A stretch of DNA of 63,817 nt, the filler included, from Reticulomyxa filosa (Eukaryota > Protista > Foraminifera): assembly GCA_000512085.1 (NCBI GenBank). It is 21 parts of 21 records of this genome, joined end to end, with 100 filler letters (N's around TTAATTAATTAA, not from the genome) between each part and the next. Parts side by side here need not be neighbours in the genome. Positions count along the whole stretch, not along the records: positions 45,237 to 55,125 come from ASPP01007755.1; 20 more parts are not named here. The stretch is one strand, 5' to 3'. Every line of letters starts with the position of its first letter. Positions within the stretch are counted from its first letter, which is position 1. Below are positions 24,481 through 56,226 of this stretch, one piece after another. Position numbers and translations under genes: made by a program. The notes below the pieces were generated by a model. The model made no database searches, was not told the origin of the DNA, and saw only the letters and a list, made by a program, of their open reading frames with translations.

Positions 24481-26352
24481 CATTGTCAAGTGATAGAAAC
24501 AATGAAGAAAACAAAGGAATTATGTGATCTTCTTTTTCTTCTTGTTTTGTTTCGCATTTGTATTGTCTCCACGCTTGCAATATCAAATGCAAAGTCTTGA
24601 TGTCAGTGCCAATATCTTGAGCATTGTGACAACTGCGCTTTTGGTTCTTTGCACAGTCGGTGGAAAGTAAGATTGCTTCGACCTTTCTTCCGCAATTCCA
24701 ATTGCCCTTGTCTTTGTCATTGTTGCACATGCATTCCATTAGCATCTTGTTTATTGCATTCAAACTCTGTGGAGCACTGTCAACCCAGACAGGCTGCCAC
24801 ATTGTTCGATAATCACTTTGCATGGACACATGTTTGGCGAGCCATCCGTTCATACGAGTATGATAAGAAGACAATAAATCCATTTTCTCAAACCTTCTTC
24901 TTCATCATTTCTCATGTCTTTGTCTGGTGTCAATTGTTGAAACTTTTTCACACGTATTTTTTTGGGCAATGGCAGCTGTAGAGACGATTCAACTCTTCGC
25001 TTTTTGCGGTGCACTTGTCTGCGTTGTTGGCCGCCTTTGGTACTGTCATCACTGTCATTGTCATCACAATCACTACTGACGTTGCTGGAGTTGCTCTCAT
25101 TGCCGCTGTTGTAACAATAGCGTCGATAGCAGTTGTTATTGTTTCCACTGCTGCGGTCACGCTCGCTATTGCTATCATTGTCATTGGTATTCGTATTGCT
25201 ATCACTATTATTATTACTATTGCTATTGCTATTGCTATTGCTATTGCTATTACTATTGTCACCATCGTTGTTGTCGCTATCACTGGCATTGCGACTATCA
25301 AACTCGGATGTGCAAAGCAAAGACAACCAACTTGGGACAGACTCCTCTGCTTTGATAGGGGGTTTTGTCGATTGGAAAGGATTCGCAAACAATGCCTTTC
25401 TGCGAGCCTCAGCGTCATTATTATTATTATTATTATTATAGTCGTCGTTATCGTCATCACCGTTTTCACCATCATTGTTCTCATTTACATTACTACCGTT
25501 TCCTCCAATGGGCTGTGCGGACATGATCTTTCGATCACGAGTAGTGTGACGATATTGTTGGAGCCGCTCCATCGGATGTGCTTTGAAGCCCTCACAAATG
25601 AGCATTTGCTCTTTCATTGCACTGTCCACCGTCGGCGTGATCGTCTCTTCACACGTTGGAATGTCGCTCTCGCTGCTGGTTATCCATGATTGCCATTTCG
25701 ATACTACGTCCTTTTCTTTTCGTTTTTTGCTTTTCTTTTTGTTTGTATTTGTATTGCTTTTTTGATTTTTGCTTTTGCTTTTGTCTTTGTTTTTTTTTTG
25801 TTTCTGCTTTTGCTTTTGCTGATATTTTTTCTGTTTATATTTTGTCTTCAATTGATCTGTATTCCTTTCTTTTTGTTCTTCCTTTTGGACCAGATAATCA
25901 ATTTTGCTTTGCATTTCTTTCATCAGCTTGTTTTGTTGCTTCATTTGCGACAACAACCATTCGTTTTTAGTCTTTTCTTCGTTCCACTGTTGGATCAACA
26001 TGTTCTTTTCCATTCTCAATTTTTCCCTTTCATTTTCCAATACCATTGTGCTGTCACTAGCAACGCCGCTGAGTTTTTTTGAACCGCTCGCACGCTGTCC
26101 ATATCTCTCTTGCGACACTACTGCTGTTGCCGTTGCTAATACTGTTGACGATGACAATGATATATTGCCCGCATTTCCTTTGCGTTGTCCGCTACGATAC
26201 CACGGCGTTTCGTCCTCACCCGATTCACCACTGCTCTTCGCCATTCCTTGTCTGAGCGAAGGTGGTTCCAAATACTGTTCTTCCGGGTGTACACGACGAA
26301 AGTATTTCGCTCTTGGAATGTGATGGGGTCCATTCCAAACGGTAAGAAACAA
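23584..26352 (-). CDS. Large low-complexity/coiled-coil protein, probably the continuation of the CAP-Gly gene; 3'-truncated
   Basis: ORFs 24850-26352 and 23584-24883 overlap in different frames. They contain a coiled coil, poly-N, (NS)n and (DN)n tracts, and a globular region at ~23900-24300. Confidence 0.55.
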
Positions 26353-26579: not shown

Positions 26580-27489
26580 AACTGATTGGTTGGAATTGGT
26601 GATTTGGAAAAGTATTTTTGTTCCGATTTGCCAGAAAGACCACTCGGATGGCGGGAAGTAACTTCTGCACTACCACCACGTACAATCACCTCAGGTTGTG
26701 CAAGATAGGCGGAAGAAGTAGCAATGATGGCGGCGGCCTTGGCCATCATAGGCACAGACTTGGACTGAATAATGGTACTTTTTTTTCGTTTGGACAATTG
26801 TGTTTGGAACAATTGGAAAACATAGCAAATGGAACAATGAAACTTGTTTTGGATGAATTGCTGTCAAAGTAGGTAATGTCGTCCACTTTTCCTTTGTCGC
26901 ATTGGAAATGACGACATTGCTGAGGATCAAGATTGAGATGCTTGTCATGTCTTAGCAAACCTTTGTGTACATTCTGCTTATTGCCAGCACTGGTGTCATC
27001 ACCAACATTGATATGCTCTTCCTCTTCTATCAATTCCACTCCAACGTACTGGTTACATGGGTATGGAAGTTGGTCCACTTTTTTTGGTCGATGAAAATAT
27101 CCAACGTATTTTATTCTTCCATATCTCTTCATCAACGGAAGATAGAGGACATCGCGAATACTCAGACACACTGGAAATGTCGAAGATTGCACTACGTTTT
27201 CAATATCATTTTTTCTTGCTAATACGCCATGCTTTGTCTTCGTCACAAAATACGTATGCTTTTCAAAAGTTCCGTTGTGCTCACCACATGGATGTTGCAA
27301 ACTTATCCCATACCAATCACCTTCTGTTCCATGCAATGGCCCAATATATGCGATTTCACCCAATAAATTGTTACTACTTAAGCGGACTGTGTCACCATAA
27401 CACAATTTATCCACACACAACTTTGAGTTCGCAATACTCTGGCTAAGAGTGTTTGCTTTGTCAAATCGAGTCTCGCAACGTTGAGCCAT
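26580..27489 (-). CDS. Protein with two CAP-Gly domains
   Basis: GEIAYIGPLHGTEGDWYGISL..GEHNGTFEKHTYF..HGVL, and a second degenerate copy GRIKYVG..YVGVEL..GKVDDITYF. Confidence 0.85.
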
Positions 27490-27836
27490 GATTATCCAAG
27501 GTCAAAGTATACCTTTTATTGGCTAGACGGAGCGGAAAATTAGAAAAGGTGTAACGTGGCTTAAAACGACTGACACTAACAGAAACCTGATTATTTCCTT
27601 GACCCATTGGCAGAATTGATACTAGATCAAACAACAGTGCACAGGAATTGGCAATTTACTCAAAGTTTCATTTGAATGAAAAGAAAATATGGCAATAATT
27701 TTTTTTTTTTTGAAGCCAACAAAACACGCCATTTTTTGTGCTTATCTTTTTTTTATTTCAATTTTTCAAAAAAGAAAAAAGATTAGGTTTTTGTTTCCCC
27801 TCATGGCAATCAGAGACAGTTGAGCCAAACTTATTG

Positions 27837-30465: not shown

Positions 30466-30517
<52 letters not shown>

Positions 30518-30519
30518 TA

Positions 30520-31098
30520 AAGGACGAGTGGTAATAAGAGACGTATTTCGAAATGACAAAGAGCAAATTCACAGTTTTGACGAAGAGAAAACGATATTGA
30601 CAGTGTGTTTGACAAAAGGGTTTGGTGAAAAGGGCGTGTATGGGTTTGTGTGCGGGGGTGCGAATGGCAATGTGATGGAACGAAAACGCAGCAGCTTTGC
30701 AATGACGACCAGCGCATTGGACAGAGGACACGGAGCGATCTCTTGCATCCGACGACAAAATGAAGTGTTCGCTTGGGTGAATAACCTCGGTGTCCAACTG
30801 TATGACATTGCCACACATCAATGGATTGGAACAGTGCCGCCACTGTCCAAAATTCAGAGCAGATGTCCCTTCCATTTGTGTTGGAAAGATCCCGTCACAC
30901 TTTTCATTGCGTCGTACGATTGGATTAAAGTGGTTAAGATCGATTACTCCTCCTCTGCTGCTGCTACTGCTACTCGACTTGCTCGTCCGTTTAAAAGAAA
31001 TGTCCATCTGCTTAGCGTGTTTGTCACCAATTCTCTTCTTTGCGGCGTGGCACCGTTTCAAGAAAACATTATCCTTTTGGGATATCCTAAAGGAGGAA

Positions 31099-31131
<33 letters not shown>

Positions 31132-31885
31132 TTAATGGTGATGATAATAATGAATATGAGTATGATAATGGCAATGGCAATAGCAATGGCAATGATGAAA
31201 ATAGGAAAAGAAAACAAATAGTACCACAATTGGGGATTGTAACGTATCAAGGCAAATGGGTTTCAACACTTGCCTTGTCTACAGCCAACGATGAACGCAA
31301 TATTGATTCAATATATGATTACCATTTGATATGGTGTCCCCCATCTTCCTCCTCCTCCTCCTCCTCTTCCTCCTCCTCATCATCATCACCATTATCATCA
31401 TCATCACCATTATCATTATCCTCTTCTTGCTCTTGCTCTTGCTCTTGCTCTTGCTCAGTGAAGAGTGAGATCGATAGCAACAGCGTGGACGAAAAGAAAG
31501 AGGAGAAAAAGAAAGAGCCAGAGTCAGAGTCAGAGTCAGAAAAAGAAGAAAAAGAGTACTTTTACATTGCATCAAACAAGACGATGTGTGTAGCGTATCC
31601 ACAGACGTTGGAAGACCATTTGCTCTGGCTCTGGGATCAGAGACAGTACGACAAGGCATGGAGATTGGTGTTGGAGAACAAATGGCGCAAGCAAATTGAT
31701 TTCATCGCTTTTGGAGAAAAGTATTTACAGACTATCCTCGGCATTCTACGCAAATACCAACAGCACCCCTTTCTTATTGTACATGACAATGATGATGATG
31801 ATGATGATGATGATGACGACGACGATGATGATGATAATAACAATGATAATAATAATAATAATAATAACAATAATAATAATAATAA
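30520..31885 (+). CDS. VPS41: Vps41 (HOPS subunit) homolog, internal fragment
   Basis: FVCGG..FAWVNNLGVQLYD..LCWKD..DWIKVVKI..LCGVAPF..DYHL..FYIAS..EDHLLWL..YDKAW matches the Vps41 beta-propeller and the start of its solenoid. Confidence 0.8.
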
Positions 31886-41161: not shown

Positions 41162-41870
41162 CATTTTATTATTTATCATTGTTATTATTGCTTTGCAATG
41201 GTGAAATATCTACACAACAAACAATATCTTCGTGTCCATTGAAAATATGTAATGATTTTGATGTTTCAATATCCCATAAACGAATTGTTTTGTCATTAGA
41301 TCCAGAACACAAATATCTACCACCATTAAATGGTGAAAATTTAATACTATAAACATAACCAGTGTGTTCATTGAATATTTGTAATTGCTTATTATGTTTG
41401 AAATCCCAAAAACGAATGGTTTTGTCATTTGATGAAGAACAAATGACATTTTGACGATGATTATGATAGTAATATGATGAAAATCTCACACAACACACTT
41501 CAGATGAATGTCCATTGAATGATTGAATTTGTTTGTTGTTATCAACATCCCATACACGAACTGTTTTATCACCTGATCCAGAACAAATCAATTGACAATC
41601 ATCAAAGGTTGAGTAATCAATACCCCACACATAGTTTGTATGTCCAGTGAATGTATTGAGTAATTTGGATGATGAACGAAATGTGTCAAACATGAAGAAT
41701 GTAGATGCCTGTTAAATAAATATTTATTTGATTGATCAAATGAAAAAGAAACAAATGAACTAACATAATTGACAATAATTTTGTCAAAATCTTTGATCCA
41801 TCCTAGTTTAATGTTTAATGTTCGAATCCAGTGATGAATAATTATTTGGATCTCTTCTTCTGGCTGTTTC
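41162..41870 (-). CDS. WD40-repeat protein of an expanded family, 3'-truncated
   Basis: GH..ICSGSGDKTVRVWD, GH..DKTIRFWD and LCSGSNDKTIRLWD repeats; N-terminal exon shared with 10576-10650. Confidence 0.93.
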
Positions 41871-42329
41871 AATAACAGATTACAACAATAAGTAAAATAA
41901 AAAGTAAAAACTTAAAGACAAGCTGGACTCAACTTTGATTGATAAGTTTAAGTTCATTCTCGTAACTCTTTTAGTTTTCTCTTGAGATAATCTTTGATGA
42001 TGCTAGACGAAAAAAATGCTTAAACTTTTGTTGATAAAAGGAGCTAAGATTTACACAAAAAACAATTTGAAACGGAAGATAAATGTTACATTTTGTGTAT
42101 CACAATAATAGGTAACAACAATTCTACAATGCAAAAATTTTATAGAAGGGCAATATATTTTACTTTCTGGGAATTTTTTATTGCAAAAAAGCTTTTTTTT
42201 GAGCAATCAATTGTTCAAAAACAGAATAAATCGTAAGATAAGTACTCATATTTATGATTATTCATTTAATGCATTTGATTGAAAATAGCTGTTAGATATT
42301 ACACACTTGCCTTCCTTGTGATCAAAGTA

Positions 42330-42730
42330 ATTAATTGAATTTATTGGATATTTCAAATATTTGGGACCTTTGTCATGCAATTACTCAACAATGAAAAATC
42401 AGCAATTTGATGTCCTTGAGCAATCGATCAAATGGTATCTTTGTTTATATTTGCTCTTCTTGTTGTTTGATGAAAAATCGGATTATTTTTACTACGACAA
42501 ATATCAACAATAAATTTGGAAAATCTTTGAAAGATTCCATTTCATGGCAATTAAATGTTGTGCGTATTTTGCCAATTGATAAAGAGTTTTCATCGCTTGT
42601 CAATAACATATTTCCTTTCTTTCAATGTCCACAAATTATTATTATCAATCCATCACATTTTTTAGTATTTCATGAAGTTCATGCTTTGCATTTGTGAATA
42701 TTGATTGCATTCAAATTCATAATTTAATTC
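42330..42730 (-). pseudogene. Caspase-like (peptidase C14) pseudogene
   Basis: The reverse complement aligns with 52440-52760 (atttgtggacat.., tttaattgccatgaaatggaatctttcaaagattttcc). The Gly codon of the HG dyad is TGA, and deletions are present. Confidence 0.8.
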
Positions 42731-42842
42731 TTTTTGAAATAATTGTTTGAAATTTTCTACAGATATAATTTCTCGTAGAAGTTTTGTAGTTCAGTTTTGT
42801 GTCTGTTCAAAAAAAGTCTTCTTCAAGGTACCATCATCTCTA

Positions 42843-43800
42843 ATGTTCCTGAAAAGCCGAGATGGAAAACAGGTGCATGCAAATTTATTTATCCTGGAAA
42901 ACTAGCGGTTTTAAACGATATAGACAAACCTTTTTTTTTTTTTCCCTCCTTCCCCCCCCCCCTCCACTGTTAACTTTTTTGAAAAAACAGAAAGACGGAT
43001 CGACAAAGGTGGCAAGAAAAACAGGCTATCTGAAGAAAATCCAAGGAGGTTATTCATATCATAAATACTATTTTACGCTAACAAAGACCCGCTTATTATA
43101 TTTCAGCAAAAAAAAAGAGCACAAGCTCGTCGGGGAAATTTCTTTACCTTGTGGGATCAACACAAATAATATTGACACGAATAAAAACTATGCATTTGAA
43201 TTATTTCCTTCGAAACCCTCTTCTCAGCACGAAAAGAGTATTTTTTTGGCAGCAGAGTCACAAGAAGAAGTTGAGTGTGTAAAAGCGTCTACCACAACAT
43301 GCTTGCTTGCATGGGAAGACCCTTAAAGAAGGGAAGGGGGGGGTGTAAAAAAAAGGGGTCAAGAGAGGGGGGGGGGGGAGGAAAAAAAACACATACATAA
43401 TGCAATAACTATATATGCGTAGATGGATGAGTGGATCGAAGCAATAACAGAAGCATCATCGAAAGCGTTTTTTCCAGACAGTTTGAAGGACGACACAAGC
43501 AAGAACGACATTGAAAAGGATGATGGTCTTGCTTCTTTTTCGGACAAGGACGCCATCGCCGCTGAAATTGACTTGAATGAGAGCATTCGCAACAAAATGA
43601 AGCATATGCTGCATAACAGTTCGTTCCAAGTCAATGCGCAGTTGGCCAATTGGAGAAGTCCCGTCTCTCTGCGCGGTCTCGTCAGTGCCACCAGTGAGGA
43701 TTTGTCGGAAGACGTTTATAACATGTTAACATTGGGGGCTGTCGATCCTTCGCTAATGCTCCCCAGTCGTGCCTTGGCTGTACATAATGTAATGTTTTGT
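42843..43800 (+). CDS. PH-domain protein, multi-exon, 3'-truncated
   Basis: KTGYLKK..KYYFTL..LLYF..GEISL..YAFEL..FLAAESQEE/MDEWIEAI. Confidence 0.85.
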
Positions 43801-43808
43801 AACAACAG

Positions 43809-43850
<42 letters not shown>

Positions 43851-45920
43851 NNNNNNNNNNNNNNNNNNNNNNNNNNNNNNNNNNNNNNNNNNNNTTAATT
43901 AATTAANNNNNNNNNNNNNNNNNNNNNNNNNNNNNNNNNNNNNNNNNNNNATACACTTTTGATATGTAATTGTGATAAGCATCAAGAAAAGACCAATTTG
44001 GGTAATGATACAATTGCGCTGCGTTCTGTTGATGTATATGAATTTGTGTCACTTCCTTCACCTCAATGTGGCAGCAATGTAATTGTTACTTGCTCACGAG
44101 CTACAAATTGGCTAATTTGTTAAGAAATTTCTAAAATTGCTTTGCCTGATTTCGATCCCTCTGCTCGCAGGACATTGCTACGTGCAATTACATCCAAATA
44201 GTATTCCAGCAGTACCTTTGCCCAATAATACACTTATCCGACGACGGTGACATTGACAAATTTGAATTTGTATTATAATAAGTTGGTTGATCATGTTTGG
44301 TATTTGATTGCATCTGGCAACACGAATTTGGCGAGCAAGCAATTCGAACGGCGATATTACCGAATGTACTCAAGTGTCTGTGAACAGCACCAATACCATT
44401 TGTTGTAGAGGACAAGACGTCCAATGCTTACACAACAACCAAGATGCAGTCTGCAATGGAATATGAAAAGTTGACGACCAAAGATACTCTACTTGTGAAT
44501 TCGGTCGTGAGAGTAGAATTGTACGTATTACATCTACTCCCTTTCACATCAATCAATGTTCCAACTGAAACACATCTTTTGGATTGTTGTTCAAATATGC
44601 AGCCACAGAGGAAGAATCAAACAATGGCACATCAATTGCTTTTCCTTACATGTCAATGATAACCATGACCACCTCCATTGCATCGATATACAATTTGTAA
44701 GTTGTAGTATCATAGTTCACAGTCCGCTATTGATTCGAGTGATTGATTGGTTGTGCTCATTGCATAGTGTTAAATAAAAAAAAGTTATATCTGCCTACAA
44801 CTGCCGCTGTTTCAGATATATTTGCAATACATCGAAAAGATTATCTCCTTTCAATTACAATATTGAACATGCCGATTTAATTTGTGTCATTGTTTGTTTG
44901 AAATAATATCTATTTACTTCCCGAATATGACGCTTTTTCACTCGTATTTGGTACGACACTTTTGGAGGTAACATTCAATTATCGAGGATATATTCGTTTG
45001 GTTGAATGTGGCCTTTTTGTAATACGTGCCCAAGTTTGCTAGTACATTTTGACATTGTTTGATCGGTCGATGTTCGATAATAGATAGATAAAATCAAGCC
45101 ATTTGTATAATATCGTATAGCTGGCACACAAATTGGNNNNNNNNNNNNNNNNNNNNNNNNNNNNNNNNNNNNNNNNNNNNTTAATTAATTAANNNNNNNN
45201 NNNNNNNNNNNNNNNNNNNNNNNNNNNNNNNNNNNNCGAGACCTAGATTGACACATTCGTGCACTTGGAAGGAAAAATGTGCTATCCGTTCAAGCAAACG
45301 TGTAGTAAGTACGGACTTTAATTCCTTAATTTTTTAAACAAAAAAACTAAAAAAGAAAAAAATTGATCCACGTTTGGTGTGTACAACAATATATACGTTT
45401 CAATTCTGGTTTGGTGCATAAAAAAAAAGAATTTTGGCATTTTTCTAAACATTTATTATCGAATCAGCTATTACATCACAAATACTTTTCCGTGTAAACA
45501 CATTTTTAAAGAAATGGCACCACGTGAAACGATGCTTTAATTGAAGCGTTTTTTGATTGCAAAAAGATTACCTATCGATTTTCAGACGTTTGCATCAATT
45601 AACAGCTCATTAAAACCTTTGTTTATATTATTTTTTTGAAGGTTTTTTTATCAGGCAAAAATAATTTTACAAAGTGATTAATGAAAAAAATCAAACCACT
45701 CTTTGTTTTTTTGTTTTGATGACTAAAATCGACAAACAGAGAATTGCAATGTTTTTGTGTTTTTCTATTTAAACATCTCCACGCAAATACTTATAAACAA
45801 CTTCAGCTTATTTGATTAAAGCATATTTATTATTTTTAAAATAACAAATTGTATCTTTGAATAAAATAACAACAAATAACATGTTTGAGAAATATTTTAA
45901 TTTCATTTATTGTCAGTTGC

Positions 45921-47534
45921 TTATGTATTTCTCTTATCTTTCTCAACAAATGGCAAACCTTTTAAGACAGTAGCTATTGTTGCAAATTCAATGGGGGTGT
46001 ATTCTTGAAATCCTTTCTCTTCACAATAATAAATAGAAAATAAATTAATACGATGATTGCAACAACGGTTTTCCATAAATTTTTTCTTTTTTTCTTCATA
46101 TTTCCTTTCATTATTTGGTTTCTTTCTCCATTCTTCAAACAAAGATAAATGCACAACTGTTGCATCCTCGTCCTTTTGAAGCAGTGAAATCACATAGATG
46201 AGATTTAAATCAATTGCGTGATTCCACATTTTGCTAATACGCACAGTTTGTTGAATGAATTCATCATACACTGTCCATGTTAATAATATCATTTGCGTAT
46301 TTTCATTTTCATTTTCTATTCTTGCATTCCATGTTGTTTTTTCTTTATTTTTTTCGTCAAGAAATTGAGCTGAATTCGATCTAGAAAATAAAATTTCCCT
46401 TTCATGTTCGAATGGAGATATCCATGATACATCACAGCTATGAATTGCACCTGCTCTTCTCATAGAAGGATGAAAATGTAAAATACATCCTCGATCACTT
46501 CTATAAATTTGTGCAACTTGAATATCATCAGAAGTACTTACATGACTTATGAAAAATCCTTGTTTTATTTCTTTAATATTCTCCAATCTCACAGTTGCCA
46601 ATCCACAATATAAATCTATACTTTCTTCTTCTCTTCTTTCATGACTATTCAAAATACTAATAGCTCCTTGTAAACTCCTATCCAAAAAAGACCACTTATA
46701 ATGTTGAAATTGTATTTGATCTTTACTGAATTGAACATTACATGGTTTACCACAATACAATAAAATTGCACAAATTTGATGTAATTGAAGTGGATATCCC
46801 ATTTGTTTATGAATATCATCACGATACAATATCTTCACTTCATTTAATATTGTTAATATTTCATCATTTAATATTAATTTATTTACATCTTGTTCATCGT
46901 AATTAATTGCTTGTTTGATTGAATCTTCATTTTCTTGTTGCCTTTCAATTAAATCAATCAAATAACCATTCTTTATTACTTCATGCAAGAGCAGTTTCAA
47001 TTCATTATTTGATGGATCAATCGAAGATACAGTATCTTGCATCTTTTTGAGCTTGTAAATATCACATTCATACAATAATGGATTAAATTTATGTTTTTCT
47101 TTTGGCGAAGTAATATCTTCCCTTTTAATACTTTTTGATATATTATTTCTTTCAATACAAATTGTATATTTATGAGACACCATACATTTATAATCAATTT
47201 TCCAACGAACTTGTGTATTTGGATAGCCAGAAAGATGCTGATAAATGTCATTCAATAGTGAATCTTCATTTATATTTGATGGAATTGGTGGCTTACACTC
47301 ATCAAATACACATTTAAAATATATTGCTTCATCTCATCTACTCGTAGCTTGTGATACCATTTGTAATTGACTTTTGAAATGTTGAAGTGCTTGTTTCAAA
47401 GTTATTAAATAAGGGTTAAACGGTTTTATATATGTTGAAGAATTTTCTTTCGCAATAACTTGGAATGAATTGAACTCCTGTTTATATAAAATGAATGTTT
47501 GAACAAATTTGTAAATAGGAAGTTCATTTGATGA

Positions 47535-47565
<31 letters not shown>

Positions 47566-47938
47566 GTATATGTGTGAAATATAAATCATTAACTGAACAC
47601 CAATTTGATAATGTATCTCTATTATCATCTCTTATTGTGCGGAAATGCCAAGAATTGTTAGGGGTAATTATCCAGTATTTGACATAATTTGTTTCGACTT
47701 CAGAATAATCATGACGATATTGAATATTGACGTTCAATTCCAATAAAGATCTCTTTGGATTTCCAACTTGTAATGTTCGTACTTTTGATTTACCTTTTTG
47801 ATTGCTATGCAATAATACAATTCTTCGAAATTCATAATCGAATAAGATAAAACAATCTTTCCATTTTCCATTGGATAGCATAGATACTTTGAATGGATCA
47901 TTCCACTTTACTTTGTAGCTATGTCAAATAAATTATTT

Positions 47939-47974
<36 letters not shown>

Positions 47975-48770
47975 TCGTTCGCTTGTCCATTTGTAAATAA
48001 AAAAAAAACAATTCAAACATAATCAAATAGAGTACATTGGTTGTTGTTGAATCCATATTTTATAACGTTGCCACAATGGTAGTATTGTTGTAAAATGGTA
48101 ATACCAATTACCATCAGTTTCTTGTTGGAATCCACATGCCTTTAAAGGCGGCTTGCATATATACAAATAAGTTATTTACATTCACACCTAATCGATCACA
48201 CTTATTTCCTAAAATGCGACGAAATGACTCAGTATTGATTTGACGATATTTAGTAATCGTGGGATGCGCTAACATATTCCAAAATATGTGCAAGCACATT
48301 TCTCTCATTATTTTCTCTTCTTTACTTTCCTCAATTCTATGAAATATTCACACTCACACAAATATTTTCAAATATTAATTTTTTTTTGTCCATTTATTAA
48401 ACGGTTAACTTATTGACGTCGCAAGTAGAAGAAATCTCCTCTAATTCCGTCATTGTATCTAAATAAATTTGCTTCGGCTGTTTCCATGTATCTAAAATAG
48501 TCCTTTTGCTCATCACACTGCCAAAAGCTTCAAGTACTTTCATAAATTCAGTTGTTGTTCGGGAGTTGTTCTATAATTGATGTATTAGTTTGAGAAAAAA
48601 GATATTTGCATAGTTTTGTTGTTAAATGTATGTTATATTAGTTTTCACTTATTCTCCACGATAGAATTCAGGACCATAGTTGCTTCCTCAAGGTTTTCTT
48701 TACAAAGTTTCCAGATTTTTGAAACAATTTCTCTTTCAATTGTTTTGAATGATTCTTGAAGTTGTTCCAT
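45921..48770 (-). CDS. CUE-like + PUB-like + ADP-ribosyltransferase-like multi-exon protein
   Basis: Exon 1 MEQLQESFKTIEREIVSKIWKLCKENLEEATMVL (CUE-like). IFWNMLAHP..KYRQIN..GF (PUB-like). AILLY..LYCGL..HVSTS..DVSWISPFEHEREILF (R-S-E ART pattern with Arg replaced by Cys). Confidence 0.7.
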
Positions 48771-50186
48771 TTGTGCACTCAAGATTAATTCTTCTTTGAA
48801 AAAACTCTTTTTAAAACTGGAGTGAGAACCTTGAACTTTGTTAGTACAGTAAGAAAAAAAAAACTAGGTTTCCAACTTAACTCACTCCATTTTTATTTTT
48901 GATTATTTCGTAAGTGTTAATTTGTTGTTATAGAACAAAGCAATGTTTTACAAACGATTATATATTTTTTGCAATCTTAGAATAGTCATAGTTTTAAGTA
49001 TGCCTTGGAGGAAATCTTTTTATCAAAAGGAAAAACAAATGCCGCAAAAAACATGAAATAAAATACTAAAATAATATTTAAATCTATGTAATTTGTAGAT
49101 ATTTTTAAAAGAGTTTAATTCAAGTGTTATCTTTTTTTGTATCTCCAAAATCATTCTACAAATAAAGTATTAGAATCAAATTAAAGTACAATATTGTTGA
49201 AAAGTTGAAGCTAACGAGAAAAGAGACAATTATCGATTTAATTGCAATTGCCACAGCCTTGTTAAATTTGTTCAGGTTTTTTAACTGCTTCGCGAGTGCA
49301 CAACTCTAAAATACAAAAAGAAAAAAAAGGAATTGGTTCTCGACGAGGAATGTTATTTTCTTTCAGTAAAAGTAAAGACAATAATCACTCTAAAAGTTAC
49401 CTTATTAAATCTATTGTGGGAATCAACGTATATTTACTTTTATTCACAAAAGGGCAAACATGCCGTATTGAATTGGACGACAAATACGTCCAGCAAAATT
49501 TGTTTGGACAAAGTGTTCTGAGCTCTTTAATTTTGAAATATTACTAGAGTCTTATATTGTGAACAGATTGTTCGCCAGAAAAAAGTTTTCCAAGAAAAGA
49601 CATCACTTGCATTACAAATTTGTATTGTTCTTAAATTTATCTATTTCTTTCCCTTCCAATTACAATTCAAAATTCCATGTGAGATATTTACAAATAGAAT
49701 CTTAAAATATGTTACATTGATTAATCGAAGGAAAGATTTACTTCGTTTAATTCAATCCAAAAATTTGTTTTAAAAAAAAAATATTATCCCCGCAACTATT
49801 ATTTGTAAGCTTCTTTCCAACATTTGTATGTGATTGTATTTGTGATGGAATCAGTCAAAGCCATCCCTTTTTTTATTGTGTTGAAGGTTTTCTAATTTCT
49901 ATGTAAAAGAAATTTTGTGATTAGAAAGTGCTTTACGAAACTCAAAATAATATTTAAATGTCAAGTCATTAATATGGTGGCTACGTAATTTATTATATTG
50001 CATGAAACTAGAGCGCACATTTGACTGGTAGCCAATTACAAAGTAAATACTTTAATAATTTCAAAAGCTGGCAGAATGAAGCAAAAAAAACTGTTATCCA
50101 AATTTATTCTTTTCTAACATGATGTTGAGGACGTTATCAATCCCTTTTCAAAAAAAAACTATTAATAAAGTTCTAACATTAAGAAC

Positions 50187-51544
50187 ATGGGCAATCAAAG
50201 CGTAACCCTCTTTCAACCTTTGAAAGATTTGCTTACTCCACTTTCGCACTCTCAATGTGTGCTGCATAAACATGAAATCCTCATTTGTGGAGGCGTTGAT
50301 AAAAAAGATTGCTATCTTATCATACACTCAAAAACGAATACAAGCTTATCTGTAAGTATCCAACGGATGTTACATTAAAAGGACACTGTGTAGTGAAACT
50401 GGTAGATAGCAACAACAAAGACAGAAATCAAATTACTTTATTGTCTTTTGGCGGAGAATATAAACATACATTGGTGATGAAATATGTAAGTGTTTGGGGT
50501 GATGACAATAACAGCGATAATGACAATGAAATAAATAAATTGAAGAAATCAAAGAAGTCAAGCAATTACAATGAATGGGTCCATTTCACAGACAATCACA
50601 ATAATCCAACTAACATTCGAATAGGTGACGATTATAATGGAGTGCGTGCAGTGATTGGTGGAAGCAGTAATCATTTGTTATTTATCACAAATAATCCAAA
50701 GAATATTAGTGTGTTTGATTTAAGCACGTTTCAATTTATTAAACATGATACTTTACCGACAAATAAAAAAATAAGCAATCATTGCTTTATATCAAAGCCA
50801 GAAAATGGACAAGGAATATTGAAATCAAATGAAAAAAAAAAAAGAAAAATTTTTATGAAATGCTGTTGTTTTGTTATAATACAGGATTATCAATTGAATA
50901 TGATGAAGATAATAACACTTTTCAATTTCATAAACTGCCTGTTTGTAATGATATTGCACTATTCAATGGATACGCGTATGTGTATATCAACGATTCCATT
51001 TTGTTCTTTGGTGGATCGAATTATCCGCATATTTCAAAATTAGTGCACAAATATTCAATTCAAGAAAACAAATGGATGACATTTCGAAATGCTTTGCCCA
51101 GTCCATTGTATGGAAGTGTTGCAATATTGAGTGAAGACAGCATGTATGTGCATATAATTGGAGGATCGAATGGAGAAGATGTGTCAACACACATGAAAAC
51201 TCAAGTGAGTGAATGGTTGAGCGAAAAAGAAATAAAAAAAGGAATTGAATTAAAAGTGAAAAAAGAAGAAGAGAATGAACAACAGGACAAAGCGAAAGAA
51301 GAAACTAATGTTAAGCATTATATTCTGTTGTGATTATATTCAAGAGATATTGCTTTTTAACTGTGTAAATAAAAAATTCATTTGATAAAAAAAAAGTATC
51401 AATTAAGAAAAGGCAATACATAAATTATAATTTATGTTTTTTTTTTTTTTTTTTTTTTGAAATAGGACGCAAAAGAAGAAAAAGACAAACAAAACGAAAA
51501 AGAAAAAAAATAACAAAAATGACATCTATGTTATAAATGTATAC

Positions 51545-51575
<31 letters not shown>

Positions 51576-52917
51576 TTGCTGTACTTTTTTTCATTGCATT
51601 GTATTATTGTATTATGTATGCGAGACAATAACAAAAAATAGGCAAACTACGACAAATGGATGAAATGGTGGAATGAAAGAAAACAAAAAGAAAAAACAGA
51701 GATAATTGAAACATTTAAAACAATGTCAAATGAACAATTTGAAGTGTGGTTATTGAACGAGTGCGAATGGAAACATGAGATCACAAAAGATGATATTGGT
51801 GCGTTTGTTTTTCCATTGATAAATATCTTAACTCCGCAACGACAAATCAAGACAGCAAAGAAAAGGAAGTTAATTGATTTGTCTCTTTTTACTTTGCGTT
51901 TGATTGAGTGTAATAACAATACGTGGATAGTTGACAGCATATGTGATAATGGATGAAACAAAAAAATTGGTAAAAATGAAAGAACTGACTTTTGAAGAAC
52001 TTCTTCACCAAGCTTATAATTGTTTAGAATCAAAGGCTTTCCAAAAAATCAACAAAGAAAATTTAAAACTGCAATTGGTTGATATGAAGAATGATATTAT
52101 TGAATCAGATGAAGCTGTGAAGAAAGAATTTGAAAATGATGAGCCTACATTTAAAGTTATTTGGACTTCATTTCAACAACCAGTAATGCTCGGAAGAACA
52201 AAAACAATAAAAGATGCATTGGTGATAATGATTGCTATTAGCGAATATGATGATAATAACATATGGAAAAATCTTAAAAATGTGAAGGAAAAGGACGTTA
52301 AGAATTTCAAACAATTGTTTGAACAAGAATTGAATTATGAAATTGTGTGCAATCCATCTCCAAAGATGACGAAAGATGAAATCGATGAGTTCATTGAAAA
52401 AGTAAAAATCAATTTCAAACTTCGCAAAAACACTAATAACTATGATGGAGTAATTATTATCATTTGTGGACACGGAGAAAATGGAAATATGTTAGTTGCA
52501 AGTGATGGAAAATATGTATCAATTGATAGAATACGTTCATCATTTAATTGTCATGAAATGGAGTCATTCAAAGACTTCCCTAAAATTTTTATCATTGATG
52601 CTTGTCGTGGTGAAAATATTCCAAAAGCCCATGAAATTGCAAAAAGAGGAAATGAGATATCCTATGGCCACAATGACGATGGATTTTTGATAATTTGGTC
52701 AACTACAAAAGGACATCAAGTAGCTGATTTGTCGTTGTTGAGTGAATGCATTAAAAAAGTTGTTGTGTCAAAATATAAGAGTGGCTATCCATTTAAACAA
52801 ATGCTCCAAGATATTAGGACAGAAATTCGAAGCAATAAAAATAGTGAATGGTATTGTGTAGAAAGTCAAGATACCACTGATTATGACATCATTTTTCAAT
52901 CAAAAAAATCTGTATAA
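50187..52917 (+). CDS. Kelch-like beta-propeller + caspase-like (C14) protein, multi-exon
   Basis: EILICGG, LLSFGG, ILFFGG and VHIIGG kelch-like repeats. C-terminal ALVIMIAISEY..IICGHG (His 52471)..PKIFIIDACRG (Cys 52603). Three single-base frameshifts lie in homopolymers. Confidence 0.85.
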
Positions 52918-54487
52918 ATTTTTATTAGTATTATTTTTGCTTGTCTGTTTGTTTATATGTCTCAAATGATCGGGACAATCCAACTCGCCTAATTAAGTAC
53001 TTTGTTTTGTTGTGATCACATAAACATTTCTCACAACTGTAATGTATCCATCCGATTGCACATATTTTCTCGTCTGGCAGCTTACAACAATAAAAGATCG
53101 ATTGTGTTACGAGGACACCAAACAAAGAGTGTTGGCCAAACCTATTCTTTTTTAAACTTTCAGTATGTTTGTTATTGTTTATAATTATTTCTTCTTAACA
53201 ATATTGCTTTCAAAATAAAATATTTTCTAAAGATGATGGAATTTGTCTGCTTATTTTATTATAGTAAGATGTAAAATACAATAAATTACAATTCATGACA
53301 AGAATTAAAAGGAAAAAGAAAAATTTGGTTAATGACATCGAATGTACCTTCTGACATGGAATTACTTGATTAAATTGTTGTATATATTAAAGCATTTTGA
53401 CAACCTCTGCGTTGATTTAAAAAAGTTCAAGCATTTTTCCCTCTTGCATCCCAATCGAAAGATTGCTGAAAAAGTAGCTGCTTTTCAAAATGAAAAACTA
53501 ACTTCAACGCGACAATCATTGGTAAGTGTCAATTTAATCTTTGGGAGAGCCAGTTGTCTTTAAGTAAATATTATTTTTTGTGTAAACGTTCAACTAAAAA
53601 GAAACCAAAGGTGATGATTACTGTGGTATTAATCTGTGTTATGATTCCAATTTGTATTTGAGAATAGTATCATTTTTTCAAAAATTTTTGAGTGATCTGA
53701 TTTTTTTTTGGATTGAAATTTTTCAATCGACCGACATAATATTTTTTTTTGAGTGCTGTCGGAAGAATTCTGTTATTTTATTTATGTGTTGTGTTTTGAT
53801 TTCATTGCATTGACAATATTCAGTAGACTGTAACAAATAAAACTAAATTCCTAAGTTACTTTATCACGATGAAGTGATAGAAGGCAAAGTCAAAATATAA
53901 CTTAAAGCAATCAAATAATAATAAAAAAGATAGTCTAAATTATTACAGCAATAACAACGACATTAAAAAATAAATTTTGCAAGTTCGGCTAAACAAAGAA
54001 AGAAAAAAAGTCAAAGGCAAGTGCAAAATTTGTTGTTTTTTTTTAATTGATTGATGGTTTTGGCTTTGGTTGCACAAGTGGTTACAATTGTAGATTTTTT
54101 GAAAATGAAAATATAGCATGTTTCTTTGGTGCAATCTGTTTGATGATCTTTACAAGTTGTGCAATTATTTAGTTTGTTTCTTTCAAACTAAGGAAAAAAA
54201 ATAAAAAATCGAAAGAAAAAGGTGGAAACAAAAGCATGTAAAATCTTGAAAGTAAAGCAAATTTGTTGTACTTATTGCAACAAAGCAAGATGGATGTGAT
54301 ATCTAAGAATTGGAGCCAGCGTTGTTAAAAAAAAAAAAATAATAATTGATAACTATTCCATCCAAATTATTTCCATGGGTACACATGATAATTAAAAAAA
54401 AAGTTTCAAGTACCAAGAAAAAGCAGATATATATTTATTTATTTATTTTTGTAATGACTCTTATTTTATTGCACTCTAAAAAAAAGT

Positions 54488-55125
54488 TTACCGGAGAGCA
54501 AGTGACACAATGCATACGCAAAACTCGCCAAATACAACGGCAAAGGCCAATGTGTTGGAAGCCCCTTTTTTCGATTCGCTAAACATAGATACGGAGAAAG
54601 CACCCGTCTGCGCATTGGCAGCGGTGATAACACAACTATTTCCATCGAAATACCAAGGCATAATGCAGAAAAGTCCGACTCCAGATTCCTCGCCTACAAT
54701 ACAATCTGAAATCAACAACAGCCCAATAGGCCACTCAAAGTTGACGGCAATAACGATAAGGGTGATAATGTTGCCCGCGGCAGGGATTATCCAGGCAAAA
54801 GGATCCAACATCCGGAGCTGCGCATTTCGCACAAATATAAAATCATCATCGAAAAAATGGAGTAATACAACAACGAGTAAATGAAGCATCCATTAGAGGC
54901 TTGATTATGTCGGACCATGGCGGCAATGATACATATGCAAGCCAAGAGTTTGTTCGCAATGACAAGTTTTGCAACTCCAATTTTCACAAATACACTCTGA
55001 ATTTCTTTGAATATATAATACAAAAATTCGAATATTTTGAATAGAAATGGCAACGAACACACAATAAGTTCATAGAACACAAATCCATTGATACTGCCAA
55101 ATGAATCAAAGTTATTATCGTTCAT
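54488..55125 (-). CDS. Multi-pass membrane protein fragment
   Basis: Two overlapping hydrophobic ORFs with coding-like composition, cut by the contig end. Confidence 0.4.
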
Positions 55126-55225: not shown

Positions 55226-56226
55226 AAGTATTCAATTCGAGAAAACAAATGGATGACATTTCAAAATATTTTACCCAGTCCATTATGTCATTGTGTTGCA
55301 ATATTGAGTGAAGACAGCACGCATGTGCATATTATTGGAGGAGAAAATGATAAATACGATTCAATGTCAACACATATGAAAACTGAAGTTCGTGAATGGT
55401 TGAGTGAAGAAGAAATGAAAAAAGGAACTGAATTGAAAGTGGAAGAAGAAAAAGAAATAAAAAAAAATGAAGTGGAAACAATAGTAAACAAAGTAAAAAA
55501 AGATAACAATGTTGAGCATTGATTTGTAACTGGAAAATGAAAGATAATTTTGAATTAACAAATTAGTGAATGTAAATTATGTTATTTTTTTTTTTTGAAA
55601 TAGAACGCAAATGAAATGAATGAAAAAGGACAAAACGAAAATGACATCATTGTTATAAAATATATTTATTTGTCTGTTATATTGTATTATATTATACGTT
55701 AAACAAAAAAAAAAAATAAAATAGGAAATAAACAAAAAATGGATGAAATGGTGGAATCAAAGAGAAAAAAACGATAAAACAGAGATAATTCAAAAATTCA
55801 AAACAATGCCAAATGAACAATTTAAATTATGGTTATTGGATGAATGCAAATGGAAAAATCAAATCACAAAAGATGATATTACTTCTATTCTTTTTTCAAT
55901 TGATGTTTATCTTGCTCTGATCACAGCCAATGAAGACAGAAAAGAAGAAAAGGAAGTTAATAAATTGTTTATTATTTTACTCTTACTTTTTTCATCTGAA
56001 TTACAATAACAAAATACAAAAATAGTTGACAACATATGTGAAAGTGGATGAAAGAGAAACATTGATAAAAATGAAAGAACTGACATTTGAAGAACTTCTT
56101 TGTCAAAGTTATCATTGTTTGGAATGGAAAGATATTCAAAAGATGAGAAATAAACATGTAAAGCTTGATTTGGAGAATATGAAAGGTAATATTATTGAAT
56201 CAGACAAAGATGTGAAAAGAGAATTT
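55226..56226 (+). CDS. Paralog of the kelch-caspase gene, internal fragment
   Basis: Exon-for-exon match to 51050-52135: KYSIRENKWMTFQNILPSPL..VHIIGG..WMKWW..MKELTFEELL. Confidence 0.88.

What the first reader, a model, noticed from the sequence alone, without database searches (positions are those of the whole stretch)
45921..52917. Best system candidate: head-to-head ART-effector and kelch-caspase pair as a protist innate-defence locus
Seen: on a single contig the PUB-ART gene (start 48770, minus) and the kelch-caspase gene (start 50187, plus) diverge from a 1.4-kb spacer. Both families have further paralogs or pseudogenes in this small sample (11678, 42330, 55226), and propeller/effector neighbours recur on two other contigs. 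Established: repeat sensors coupled to caspase-like proteases or NAD-consuming enzymes are standard in bacterial, fungal, plant and animal immunity, and paired plant NLRs are often head-to-head. Inference: a rapidly turning-over sensor-effector system, perhaps for local cell death or pathogen control. This is a hypothesis drawn from a few fragments.
Basis: inference. Interest (0 to 1): 0.78.

Follow-up and report, generated by a model that had tools for sequence, protein, structure and literature searches.

The report
Adjacent foraminiferal ART and kelch-caspase genes
Two neighbouring, divergently oriented genes of the foraminifer Reticulomyxa filosa encode an ADP-ribosyltransferase-fold protein and a kelch-propeller caspase-like protease; both belong to large expanded families, both carry frame breaks in this assembly, and they are probably neighbours by chance rather than a dedicated defence pair.

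Summary
On one 9,889-bp Reticulomyxa filosa contig (window 45237-55125), an ART-fold gene (RFI_10546, minus strand, ATG 48770) and a kelch-caspase gene (plus strand, ATG 50187, caspase part RFI_10549) diverge from a 1,416-bp spacer.

- **ART:** the fold is confirmed by AlphaFold2 and Foldseek. STS and ExE motifs are conserved, but the motif-1 Arg is Cys.
- **Caspase:** it passes Pfam, keeps the His/Cys dyad, and is closest to animal caspases.
- **Families:** at least 71 ART and 79 caspase relatives were found in R. filosa. The ART family also occurs in two other foraminifera.
- **Shared modules:** both enzyme types are fused to kelch, WD40 or TPR modules.

The pair reading is not supported. 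I found no ART-caspase fusion and no shared adaptor domain. Only 1 further co-contig case exists among 70 other ART contigs, which is within chance. ART-linked and caspase-linked kelch modules form separate clades. There is no excess kelch divergence, and dN/dS is about 0.47 for the one pair I could test.

Both focal genes are interrupted: three single-base frame breaks and one in-frame TGA. These are either young pseudogenes or assembly errors.

A defence or cell-death role for the families remains an untested analogy.

The parts
45921..48770 (-). ART-family gene (RFI_10546, re-modelled). Exons lie at about 48770-48651, 48567-48406, 48336-48036, 47923-47594 and 47477-45921, and the stop codon is TAA.
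   Evidence: Paralogues align collinearly. GT..AG boundaries are visible in the sequence. The NCBI model P0001 lacks the first three exons and splices out conserved coding segments.
48036..48347 (-). PUB-like exon, with a single-base frame break near 48145-48150.
   Evidence: Pfam PUB scores 13.6 bits for this exon and 11.8-20.6 bits in six paralogues, all below the 34.3 cut-off. The Atlas gives PUB / SPATA2_PUB-like leads for paralogue P0004 residues 1-135. Paralogues continue in a second frame with no room for an intron.
47334..47336 (-). In-frame TGA inside a segment that is coding in all compared paralogues.
   Evidence: In 10 paralogues the stop aligns to a variable position (E, E, K, T, P, G, M, G, A, K) directly after a conserved Gly. 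It appears in 74 alignments. The NCBI model avoids it with a doubtful intron.
46395..46613 (-). ART catalytic core. Motif 1 is LYCG at 46602-46613, with Cys where R-S-E enzymes have Arg. STS is at 46530-46538 and E-R-E at 46395-46403.
   Evidence: AlphaFold2 model: pLDDT 86, pTM 0.86. Foldseek against PDB matches ExoS/ExoT, Vis, HopU1, ART2.2, XopAI and C3. Motif columns were counted in 32 sequences. Coordinates come; those of motif 1 I worked out by hand from its residue number.
48771..50186 (.). 1,416-bp spacer between the two start codons.
   Evidence: No family homology, no Rfam or tRNA match, and no DNA repeat shared with other contigs of the window.
50187..52917 (+). Kelch-caspase gene. 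Exon 1 is 50187-51309, intron 51310-51641 (GT..AG), exon 2 is 51642-51909, a 28-nt intron is 51910-51937 (GT..AG), and exon 3 is 51938-52917. The stop codon is TAA.
   Evidence: P0074-P0076 align collinearly. P0098 (RFI_10549) matches exons 2-3. Splice sites and the junction translation were checked.
50187..51231 (+). Kelch beta-propeller module, interrupted by single-base frame breaks at 50315 and within the A12 run at 50831-50845.
   Evidence: Pfam kelch matches on the window frame are below threshold, but the paralogue P0096 passes. The AlphaFold2 model of paralogue P0075 matches the KLHDC10, LZTR1, KLHDC3 and KLHDC2 propellers. Breaks.
52222..52878 (+). Caspase-like Peptidase_C14 domain. 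GHG (catalytic His) is at 52468-52476 and DACRG (catalytic Cys) at 52597-52611.
   Evidence: Pfam PF00656 scores 75.1 bits against a cut-off of 21.4. The best PDB sequence matches are animal caspases 3/6/7/8. Dyad conservation is His 19 of 20 and Cys 19 of 19. Coordinates.

Best explanation
Window 45921-52917 holds two divergently oriented Reticulomyxa filosa genes, one for an ADP-ribosyltransferase-fold protein and one for a kelch-propeller caspase-like protease. They likely act independently of each other and are probably adjacent by chance or through local clustering of two very large gene families.

**Shown.** The gene identities, folds, motifs, family sizes, domain architectures and the four frame disruptions.

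**Inferred mechanism, kelch-caspase.** Each protein would be a self-contained 'binding module plus enzyme' unit. The six-bladed kelch propeller would bind a partner or ligand. The long helix after it would bring two chains together. The caspase domain, with its intact His/Cys dyad, would then be activated by proximity and cut cellular substrates.

**Inferred mechanism, ART.** The PUB-like N-terminus would dock the ART protein on p97 or ubiquitin machinery. The ART core (STS and ExE kept, Cys in place of the usual Arg) would transfer ADP-ribose from NAD+ to a protein. From what I recall of ExE enzymes, the acceptor would most likely be an arginine.

**This copy.** The ART gene here is the short form, ending exactly where paralogues continue into kelch, WD40 or TPR modules. 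Both focal copies may be recently inactivated.
For: **Identity and start sites.**

**ART fold and motifs.**
- AlphaFold2 pLDDT 86.
- 13 PDB matches at E<=0.001, all of them ADP-ribosyltransferases.
- In 32 aligned sequences: STS 27/29/27, E-R-E 26/24/27, and at motif 1 Cys 26, Ser 3, Tyr 1, His 1, no Arg.

**Caspase.**
- Pfam 75.1 bits.
- The 60 best PDB matches are all caspases.
- Dyad conserved. Fold of the paralogue confirmed.

**Independence of the two genes.**
- No protein is common to the ART list (73 hits, 71 R. filosa) and the caspase lists (79).
- hhalign finds only the kelch module, through P0032.
- Seven ART-family proteins carry their own kelch module. Others carry WD40 or TPR.
- Kelch modules of four ART-kelch proteins form a 100/99 clade apart from the caspase-linked ones.
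- Co-contig cases: 2 of 71, including the ascertained one, against 0.13-0.28 expected.

**Decay.**
Against: - A second ART/kelch-caspase co-contig exists (RFI_17079/RFI_17081). If the ascertained case is counted, 2 observed against 0.13-0.28 expected gives P of about 0.01-0.03. Some real clustering is therefore possible.
- The caspase and ART lists are incomplete because of length windows and a word-based search. The assembly is highly fragmented, with N50 3,609 bp. Linkage is therefore badly under-sampled, and the orientation of the second case is unknown.
- Three of the window's 21 contigs carry caspase-family pieces. That is far above what 79 genes in 50,809 scaffolds predict. Either the families are much larger than annotated or the window is not a random sample.
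- The enzymatic activity of both proteins is untested.
- The missing Arg could mean the ART is inactive or has a different chemistry.
- The caspase has Asp where animal caspases have the Gln of QACRG, so its cleavage specificity is open.
Confidence: 0.6

Rival explanations
1. First reader's view. The two genes form a functional head-to-head sensor-effector pair, a defence or local cell-death locus. The kelch-caspase would sense a trigger, and it would process or cooperate with the ART effector.
For: - The layout is divergent, with a 1.4-kb spacer that could hold a shared promoter.
- A second co-contig of the two families exists.
- Both families are expanded, modular and contain pseudogenes.
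- A solved structure among the fold matches (7xn5, 'CopC-CaM-caspase-3 with ADPR') shows that ART-type enzymes can target caspases. I saw only its title.
Against: - No fusion and no shared adaptor domain.
- Excluding the ascertained case, 1 of 70 is within chance.
- The ART family has kelch, WD40 and TPR modules of its own, in a separate kelch clade.
- The orientation differs elsewhere: ART and kelch are in tandem or fused in P0032, P0155 and P0159.
- No NTPase was found.
- Both focal genes are disrupted.
Confidence: 0.1
2. Both genes at this locus are dead copies. They would be young pseudogenes from birth-and-death turnover of two expanded families, so the locus itself does nothing.
For: - Three single-base frame breaks and one in-frame TGA lie in about 4.6 kb of coding sequence. 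None can be explained by an intron.
- Clear pseudogenes of both families sit on other contigs of the window. TGA lies opposite Gly in 52 of 53 alignments and opposite Trp in 20 of 20 alignments at 42624 and 42430. The ART N-terminal copy at 11575-11952 is broken.
Against: - All three indels lie in homopolymer contexts (TT, A12, TTT/AAA), as sequencing errors would.
- The remaining frames stay open for 470 and 328 codons in 29% GC DNA. Any inactivation would therefore be very recent.
- No reads could be obtained to check.
Confidence: 0.35
3. The families are housekeeping regulators of the giant syncytial cell rather than immune genes. The ARTs would be wired to ubiquitin/p97 through their PUB-like (and possibly CUE-like) N-termini. 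The caspase-like proteases would be used for non-lethal remodelling of cytoskeleton or proteostasis.
For: - PUB-like signals appear in seven sequences, the window exon and six paralogues, and in the Atlas leads.
- UniRef labels three paralogues 'CUE domain-containing'.
- Foraminiferal relatives carry PH, SAM and RZ-finger domains.
- dN/dS is 0.47 and the kelch domain shows no excess divergence.
- The family is shared by three foraminiferal genera.
Against: - PUB is below Pfam's threshold everywhere, and CUE is not supported by Pfam.
- Copy numbers this large, together with pseudogenes, are unusual for housekeeping enzymes.
- Nothing identifies a substrate.
Confidence: 0.25
4. The juxtaposition is an assembly artefact: a chimeric join of two repeated families in a very fragmented short-read assembly.
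For: The assembly has 50,809 scaffolds, N50 3,609 bp and 30.5% repeats (table quoted in PMC13746701). Both genes belong to multi-copy families.
Against: The 1.4-kb spacer and the gene ends show no similarity to other contigs of the window or to family proteins, so there is no obvious repeat at which a false join would occur. This could not be tested with reads.
Confidence: 0.05

Closest known systems
Animal caspases (MEROPS C14A; caspase-3/6/7/8)
   Same: - Passes Pfam Peptidase_C14.
- The best PDB sequence and fold matches are animal caspases.
- Has the GHG His and the xACRG Cys.
- Klim et al. 2018 (PMC5982838; passages seen) already place Reticulomyxa caspase-like proteins with animal caspases.
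   Different: - There is no CARD/DED prodomain. Instead there is an N-terminal kelch propeller, a long helix, a helical domain and a beta-rich domain.
- It has DACRG where animal caspases have QACRG. Lys aligns with the first S1 Arg, so Asp specificity is not established.
R-S-E clade mono-ADP-ribosyltransferases (vertebrate ART2.2, Pfam PF01129; bacterial ExoS/ExoT, C3, HopU1, Vis)
   Same: - Same fold: Foldseek E 1e-5 to 1e-2, target TM about 0.4-0.7.
- STS and ExE motifs are conserved.
- Paralogues and foraminiferal relatives pass PF01129: P0004 27.2, P0072 23.5, P0219 34.1 and P0258 33.1 bits against a cut-off of 22.3.
   Different: - The motif-1 Arg is Cys here. In the wider family it is Ser, Thr or Cys, with R in only 2 of 51 pattern matches.
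- The window protein itself scores 18.3 bits, below the cut-off.
- It is a large multi-domain protein with a PUB-like N-terminus, and in paralogues it is fused to kelch, WD40 or TPR.
Repeat-plus-effector proteins of immunity and conflict systems: fungal and bacterial NLR-like STAND proteins, and bacterial caspase-like proteases with WD40/TPR (Kaur et al. 2020, PMC7159879; search listing only)
   Same: Enzymatic 'effector' domains (protease, NAD-using enzyme) are combined with WD40, TPR or kelch repeats in lineage-specific expansions.
   Different: - No NACHT, NB-ARC or other NTPase was detected in the focal genes or in the paralogues scanned.
- The kelch module is fairly conserved (mean identity 0.59) rather than hypervariable.
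- No functional data exist.
Head-to-head paired plant NLRs (recalled, e.g. RRS1/RPS4)
   Same: Two divergently oriented genes of expanded families share a short spacer.
   Different: - Neither gene is an NLR.
- The pairing is not conserved among paralogues.
- There is no integrated decoy or shared domain.

Membership tests
Peptidase C14 (caspase-like) | Pfam PF00656 at or above the gathering score | tested here: met
   75.1 bits against a cut-off of 21.4, E 8.7e-21, residues 98-316 of frame 51931-52917.
Peptidase C14 (caspase-like) | Catalytic His-Cys dyad | tested here: met
   GHG at 52468-52476 and DACRG at 52597-52611. They align to the caspase His and Cys motifs. His is kept in 19 of 20 and Cys in 19 of 19 paralogue rows that have a residue there.
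Peptidase C14 (caspase-like) | Caspase fold | tested here: met
   Tested on paralogue P0075, which is 84% identical in this domain. Foldseek matches caspase-3, -1, -6 and -8 with target TM 0.61-0.74. The window protein itself was not folded.
Animal-type caspase (C14A) in the strict sense | Asp-specific S1 pocket (Arg, the Gln of QACRG, Arg) and a death-fold prodomain | tested here: inconclusive
   Asp replaces the Gln, and Lys aligns to the first Arg. The third residue was not mapped. Pfam finds no CARD or DED. The S1 residues are named from recall.
R-S-E mono-ADP-ribosyltransferase | Pfam PF01129 or PF03496 at or above the gathering score | tested here: inconclusive
   The window protein (as model P0001) scores 18.3 bits against a cut-off of 22.3, and the bare frame gives no hit at E<=0.01. 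The relatives P0004, P0072, P0219, P0258, P0270, P0240 and P0235 pass.
R-S-E mono-ADP-ribosyltransferase | ART fold | tested here: met
   Model pLDDT 86 and pTM 0.86. 13 PDB matches at E<=0.001, all ADP-ribosyltransferases.
R-S-E mono-ADP-ribosyltransferase | Arg of motif 1 ([YF]-R-G on the first core strand) | tested here: not met
   The motif is LYCG. Across 31 rows with a residue, the position is Cys 26, Ser 3, Tyr 1, His 1. In the wider family it is S 27, T 13, C 6, R 2 of 51 pattern matches, a few of which may be spurious. The equivalence of positions is inferred from strand order in the model, not from a residue-level structural alignment.
R-S-E mono-ADP-ribosyltransferase | S-T-S and E-x-E motifs | tested here: met
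   STS is at residues 266-268 and E-R-E at residues 311-313 of the 470-residue frame. They are conserved in 27/29/27 and 26/24/27 of 32 sequences.
PUB domain | Pfam PF09409 at or above the gathering score (34.3 bits) | tested here: not met
   13.6 bits for the window exon and 11.8-20.6 bits in six paralogues. The Atlas gives PUB / SPATA2_PUB-like leads only. It works like a PUB domain at best; membership is not shown.
Kelch beta-propeller | Kelch repeat profiles and a six-bladed propeller fold | tested here: met
   The window frame is below threshold at 18-25 bits. Paralogue P0096 passes Kelch_2, Kelch_6 and Kelch_1. The P0075 model matches the KLHDC10, LZTR1, KLHDC3 and KLHDC2 propellers at E 1e-14 to 1e-10.
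Paired or NLR-like sensor-effector immune locus | STAND NTPase (NACHT/NB-ARC) in at least one partner | tested here: not met
   No such Pfam match was found in the 12 frames of the contig or in the paralogues scanned.
Paired or NLR-like sensor-effector immune locus | Pairing conserved among paralogues beyond chance | tested here: inconclusive
   Two of 71 ART contigs, including the ascertained one, hold a caspase relative, against 0.13-0.28 expected. No whole genome is held.
Paired or NLR-like sensor-effector immune locus | Shared homotypic adaptor domain or physical interaction | tested here: not met
   hhalign of the two family alignments gives one hit only: the kelch module, contributed by the ART-kelch fusion P0032. 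Interaction was not tested.
Paired or NLR-like sensor-effector immune locus | Induction by, or protection against, pathogens or non-self | not testable with these tools
   No sequencing run was listed.

The most novel reading that the evidence does not exclude
Foraminifera run an NTPase-less innate recognition and self-destruction repertoire. Two alternative death or signalling enzymes would be plugged onto interchangeable kelch, WD40 and TPR recognition modules in hundreds of fast-turning copies. One is an animal-like caspase. The other is a non-canonical ART in which Ser, Thr or Cys replaces the catalytic-site Arg. The giant syncytial cell would use these proteins to wall off infected or non-self cytoplasm. 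The focal head-to-head pair would be one snapshot of that arsenal.
Probability: 0.2. Interest if true: 0.8.

Novelty: new variant of a known kind. Interest (0 to 1): 0.42.

Why it matters
- **Cell-death and immune domain combinations.** If the families are what their architecture suggests, a free-living rhizarian protist would carry dozens of animal-like caspases joined to recognition repeats, alongside a parallel family of ADP-ribosyltransferases. That bears on how old and how widespread such combinations are outside animals, plants, fungi and bacteria.
- **ART chemistry.** An ART family that keeps STS and ExE but has Ser, Thr or Cys instead of the NAD-binding Arg raises a concrete biochemical question.
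- **This locus.** The result here is sobering. The pair is most likely two neighbours from big families, possibly both broken.
- **Annotation.** The public gene models are wrong in several places: the ART lacks its N-terminal exons, and the kelch part is split from the caspase.

Tried and rejected
- **Own genome.** None is held, so no genome-wide linkage test was possible.
- **Sequencing runs.** None was listed for the 9,889-bp contig, and no RNA holder was listed. The four disruptions and expression could not be checked.
- **ART family profile against PDB sequences.** 0 matches at E<=0.1. The fold search was needed instead.
- **Introns as an explanation for the frame breaks.** Rejected. Paralogue alignments are contiguous or overlapping across 50315 and about 48145. 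No GT..AG fits in the A-run region.
- **TGA read as an amino acid.** Rejected. In-frame TGAs in the window's family copies lie opposite Trp, Gly, Arg/Ile and other residues, so there is no single meaning. Both focal genes end in TAA.
- **My own first reading of the ART-gene TGA.** I first took it to sit on a conserved Gly. On recount this was wrong: it sits at the variable position directly after that Gly.
- **CUE domain.** Not supported by Pfam. Only one paralogue scores, at 14.6 bits against a cut-off of 21.1. The label comes from UniRef names.
- **Rfam and tRNA scans.** Nothing found in the contig or the window.
- **Earlier findings of this scan.** Nothing returned.
- **Genome paper.** Glöckner et al. 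2014 is not held. What it says about these families is unknown to me.
- **Literature searches.**
  - 'Reticulomyxa' + 'kelch': 0 papers.
  - 'Reticulomyxa' + 'ADP-ribosyltransferase': 1 paper, on PARPs.
  - A search joining Reticulomyxa with conflict-system and NLR terms listed no paper that mentions Reticulomyxa among the 15 shown.
  - One search was wasted on loose terms.
- **Complex prediction.** Not run. I do not claim binding, and the window's kelch domain is broken.

Full report
**Where this is.**

The window is 21 short contigs joined by N spacers. The finding lies on one contig, window 45237-55125 (9,889 bp, GC 0.29). The 470-codon minus-strand frame 45921-47333 is 97% identical to 'hypothetical protein RFI_10546 [Reticulomyxa filosa]', whose contig is also 9,889 bp. 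The plus-strand frame 51931-52917 is 100% identical to RFI_10549 on the same contig. The organism is therefore the freshwater foraminifer R. filosa.

No whole genome is held for it. A table in PMC13746701 (passages seen) gives the public assembly as 101.9 Mb, 50,809 scaffolds, N50 3,609 bp, 39,965 genes and 30.5% repeats.

**Gene 1, the ART gene (minus strand).**

Paralogues align collinearly from an ATG at 48770 down to the TAA at 45921-45923. Three paralogues begin at the homologous MEQLQ. My model has five exons:

| Exon | Coordinates | Content |
|---|---|---|
| 1 | about 48770-48651 | N-terminal helical region |
| 2 | 48567-48406 | N-terminal helical region |
| 3 | 48336-48036 | PUB-like |
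| 4 | 47923-47594 | beta-rich, unassigned |
| 5 | 47477-45921 | ART core and C-terminal helical region |

GT..AG introns are visible in the sequence. Two of them carry microsatellites.

The public model P0001 differs from mine in three ways. It starts downstream of the first three exons. It splices out conserved coding segments. It also adds a C-terminal tail that no paralogue supports.

- **ART fold.** Pfam gives nothing for the bare frame at E<=0.01 and 18.3 bits (cut-off 22.3) for P0001, while the relatives P0004 (27.2) and P0072 (23.5) pass. A family profile finds nothing in PDB sequences. An AlphaFold2 model of the 470 residues, built with 32 family sequences, is confident (pLDDT 86, pTM 0.86). 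Foldseek finds 13 PDB matches at E<=0.001, all ADP-ribosyltransferases: ExoS/ExoT, Vis, an 'ADP-ribosyltransferase toxin/immunity pair', HopU1 and ART2.2. XopAI and C3 follow.
- **Catalytic motifs.** In the 32-sequence alignment, STS (27/29/27) and E-R-E (26/24/27) are conserved. The motif-1 position that holds Arg in R-S-E enzymes is Cys in 26 rows, Ser in 3, Tyr in 1 and His in 1, and never Arg. That this is the equivalent position is inferred from strand order in the model, not from a residue-level superposition.
- **PUB.** It is below Pfam's threshold in all seven sequences that score: the window exon and six paralogues. The Atlas points to PUB / SPATA2_PUB-like for P0004 residues 1-135, which counts as a lead only. 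CUE is not supported by Pfam.

**Gene 2, the kelch-caspase gene (plus strand).**

Full-length paralogues P0074-P0076 align from 50175-50199 to 52914, and the ATG is at 50187. The structure is exon 1 50187-51309, intron 51310-51641, exon 2 51642-51909, a 28-nt intron 51910-51937, and exon 3 51938-52917. All introns are GT..AG, and the junction reproduces P0098.

- **Caspase domain.** It scores 75.1 bits in Pfam PF00656, against a cut-off of 21.4. Its 60 best PDB sequence matches are all caspases, mostly animal caspase-3/6/7/8 (best E 2.4e-8), with GHG and DACRG aligned to the catalytic motifs. His is kept in 19 of 20 and Cys in 19 of 19 paralogue rows.
- **Kelch propeller.** Kelch profiles are below threshold on the window frame but pass in paralogue P0096.
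- **Architecture of paralogue P0075.** The AlphaFold2 model (pLDDT 76.5, pTM 0.49) shows a propeller (about residues 1-325), a long low-confidence helix, a helical domain, a beta-rich domain and the caspase. Foldseek matches the KLHDC10, LZTR1, KLHDC3 and KLHDC2 propellers, and caspase-3/1/6/8.
- **Prior literature.** Klim et al. 2018 (PMC5982838; passages seen) already reported that Reticulomyxa caspase-like proteins group with animal caspases. One such protein is used as an outgroup in PMC10959488 (passages seen).

**Disruptions.**

| Gene | Position | Type |
|---|---|---|
| Kelch-caspase | 50315 | single-base frame break |
| Kelch-caspase | A12 run, 50831-50845 | single-base frame break |
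| ART | about 48145-48150 | single-base frame break |
| ART | 47334-47336 | in-frame TGA |

Paralogues align straight across each frame break, which leaves no room for an intron. The TGA lies in a segment that is coding in all 10 paralogues inspected. It sits at a variable position directly after a conserved Gly. I first misread it as sitting on the Gly and corrected that.

All three indels lie in homopolymer contexts. The remaining frames are long and open in AT-rich DNA. Either assembly error or very recent inactivation is therefore possible. No sequencing run could be listed to decide.

Clear pseudogenes of both families do exist on other contigs of the window. The caspase copy at 42366-42766(-) has TGA opposite Gly in 52 of 53 alignments and opposite Trp in 20 of 20. 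The ART N-terminal copy at 11575-11952 is broken.

**The families.**

*ART.*
- 73 hits at E<=0.001: 71 are named R. filosa and 2 are unnamed.
- A profile search of 1.84 billion representatives gives 672 hits at E<=0.001 and 213 at E<=1e-30.
- Of 20 of those hits that I looked up, 5 are R. filosa, 8 Bolivina argentea, 2 Nonionella stella and 5 unnamed.
- In 51 pattern matches among 126 relatives, the motif-1 residue is S 27, T 13, C 6 and R 2. A few of these matches may be spurious.

*Caspase.*
- There are 24 relatives of 575 aa or more and 55 of 180-574 aa. All 79 are R. filosa.

*Architectures.*
- **Caspase family:** kelch-caspase in 13 of the 24 long ones by stored Pfam and 15 of 24 by my kelch-module HMM; TPR-caspase in 5 of 24; Ras-caspase in 1.
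- **ART family:** ART-kelch in 7 proteins, some continuing into WD40; ART-WD40; and ART-TPR.
- **Foraminiferal ART relatives:** these carry PH, SAM or RZ-finger domains.

The focal ART ends at ...GLPFVEKDK, exactly where the fused paralogues continue into a propeller.

**Is it a pair?**

Six observations bear on this:

1. No protein occurs in both the ART and the caspase lists.
2. hhalign of the two family alignments returns one hit only, the kelch module contributed by the ART-kelch fusion P0032.
3. By locus tag, accession and contig length, one further ART/kelch-caspase co-contig exists: RFI_17081 = ETO20139.1 and RFI_17079 = ETO20137.1, on a contig of 6,089 bp.
   - With 71 ART contigs totalling 355,580 bp, 79 caspase relatives and the published gene density, chance predicts 0.13-0.28 co-contigs.
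   - Counting both cases gives P of about 0.01-0.03.
   - Leaving out the case that prompted the question, 1 of 70 has a chance probability that I estimate at roughly 0.1-0.25 from those expectations.
   - The lists are incomplete and the assembly is fragmented, so this test is weak either way.
4. A maximum-likelihood tree of 23 kelch modules puts four ART-linked modules in a 100/99 clade. The caspase-linked modules, including the window's, sit on the other side in a poorly resolved radiation with 13 of 20 inner branches open. P0164 is the one exception. The two effector types therefore own separate kelch lineages rather than exchanging modules often.
5. Among 14 full-length kelch-caspases, mean pairwise identity is 0.587 for the kelch domain and 0.600 for the caspase domain.
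6. Between the focal gene and the fragment at 55226-56226, dN/dS is 0.47 over 234 codons, with dS 0.54. That is one pair only. It gives no sign of diversifying selection, although constraint is loose.

**Reading.**

The best-supported view is that these are two self-contained 'binding module plus enzyme' genes from two large foraminiferal families, lying next to each other without a demonstrated functional link. Both are possibly decaying.

The mechanism I commit to for each protein is inferred from the families:
- proximity-activated caspase-like proteolysis steered by the kelch propeller;
- NAD+-dependent protein ADP-ribosylation by a non-canonical ART docked through a PUB-like N-terminus.

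A family-level role in defence, allorecognition or regulated destruction of cytoplasm is compatible with the modular architectures, the expansions and the pseudogenes. It rests on analogy only.

**Prior description and rating.**

The searchable literature holds no paper joining Reticulomyxa with kelch. It holds only a PARP survey joining it with ADP-ribosyltransferase. The genome paper could not be read, so prior description there cannot be excluded.

I rate the locus as a new variant of known kinds and of moderate interest. The interest lies mainly in the families rather than in the pair.

Noticed in passing
window 14196-18001: This contig has about 60% GC, against 25-41% for the others. It carries a family-2 glycosyltransferase frame and an IS3-type transposase (rve, HTH_21). 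It is probably bacterial DNA in the assembly, from a contaminant or an associate.
   Followed up: partly
window 41162-43850: On the minus strand a caspase-family pseudogene (42366-42766, with several in-frame TGA/TAA) lies upstream of an open WD40 frame (41169-41711). A PH-domain frame lies on the plus strand at 42853-43326.
   Followed up: partly
window 51910-51937: A 28-nt GT..AG intron is needed to join the caspase gene's last two exons, as in the public model. That is very short for a spliceosomal intron.
   Followed up: partly
window 47940-47973 and 47535-47571: Two introns of the ART gene carry dinucleotide microsatellites: (CA)17 on the plus strand and (AT)18.
   Followed up: no
window 45921-48059 (public model RFI_10546): The public protein model omits the N-terminal exons. 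It also splices out conserved coding stretches, including one inside the ART core. Finally, it adds an unsupported C-terminal tail from 45626-45919. By numbering, RFI_10547 and RFI_10548 should lie between the two genes. I did not see them.
   Followed up: partly
window 54480-54892: Frames of 134 codons are open on both strands of the same stretch, and neither has a Pfam match. This is unexplained.
   Followed up: no
window 4321-5058; 26746-27501; 30468-31883: Ordinary eukaryotic gene pieces lie on other contigs: an AAA ATPase, a CAP-Gly domain protein and a Vps41-like beta-propeller.
   Followed up: no
window 1-2000 and 24001-26000: Both stretches show strong negative AT skew, about -0.27. 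The first also has GC skew of -0.26. The cause was not examined.
   Followed up: no
whole window: Three of the 21 contigs carry caspase-family pieces and two carry ART-family pieces. That is far more than 79 and 71 annotated genes in 50,809 scaffolds would predict. Either the families are much larger than annotated or the window's contigs are not a random sample.
   Followed up: no
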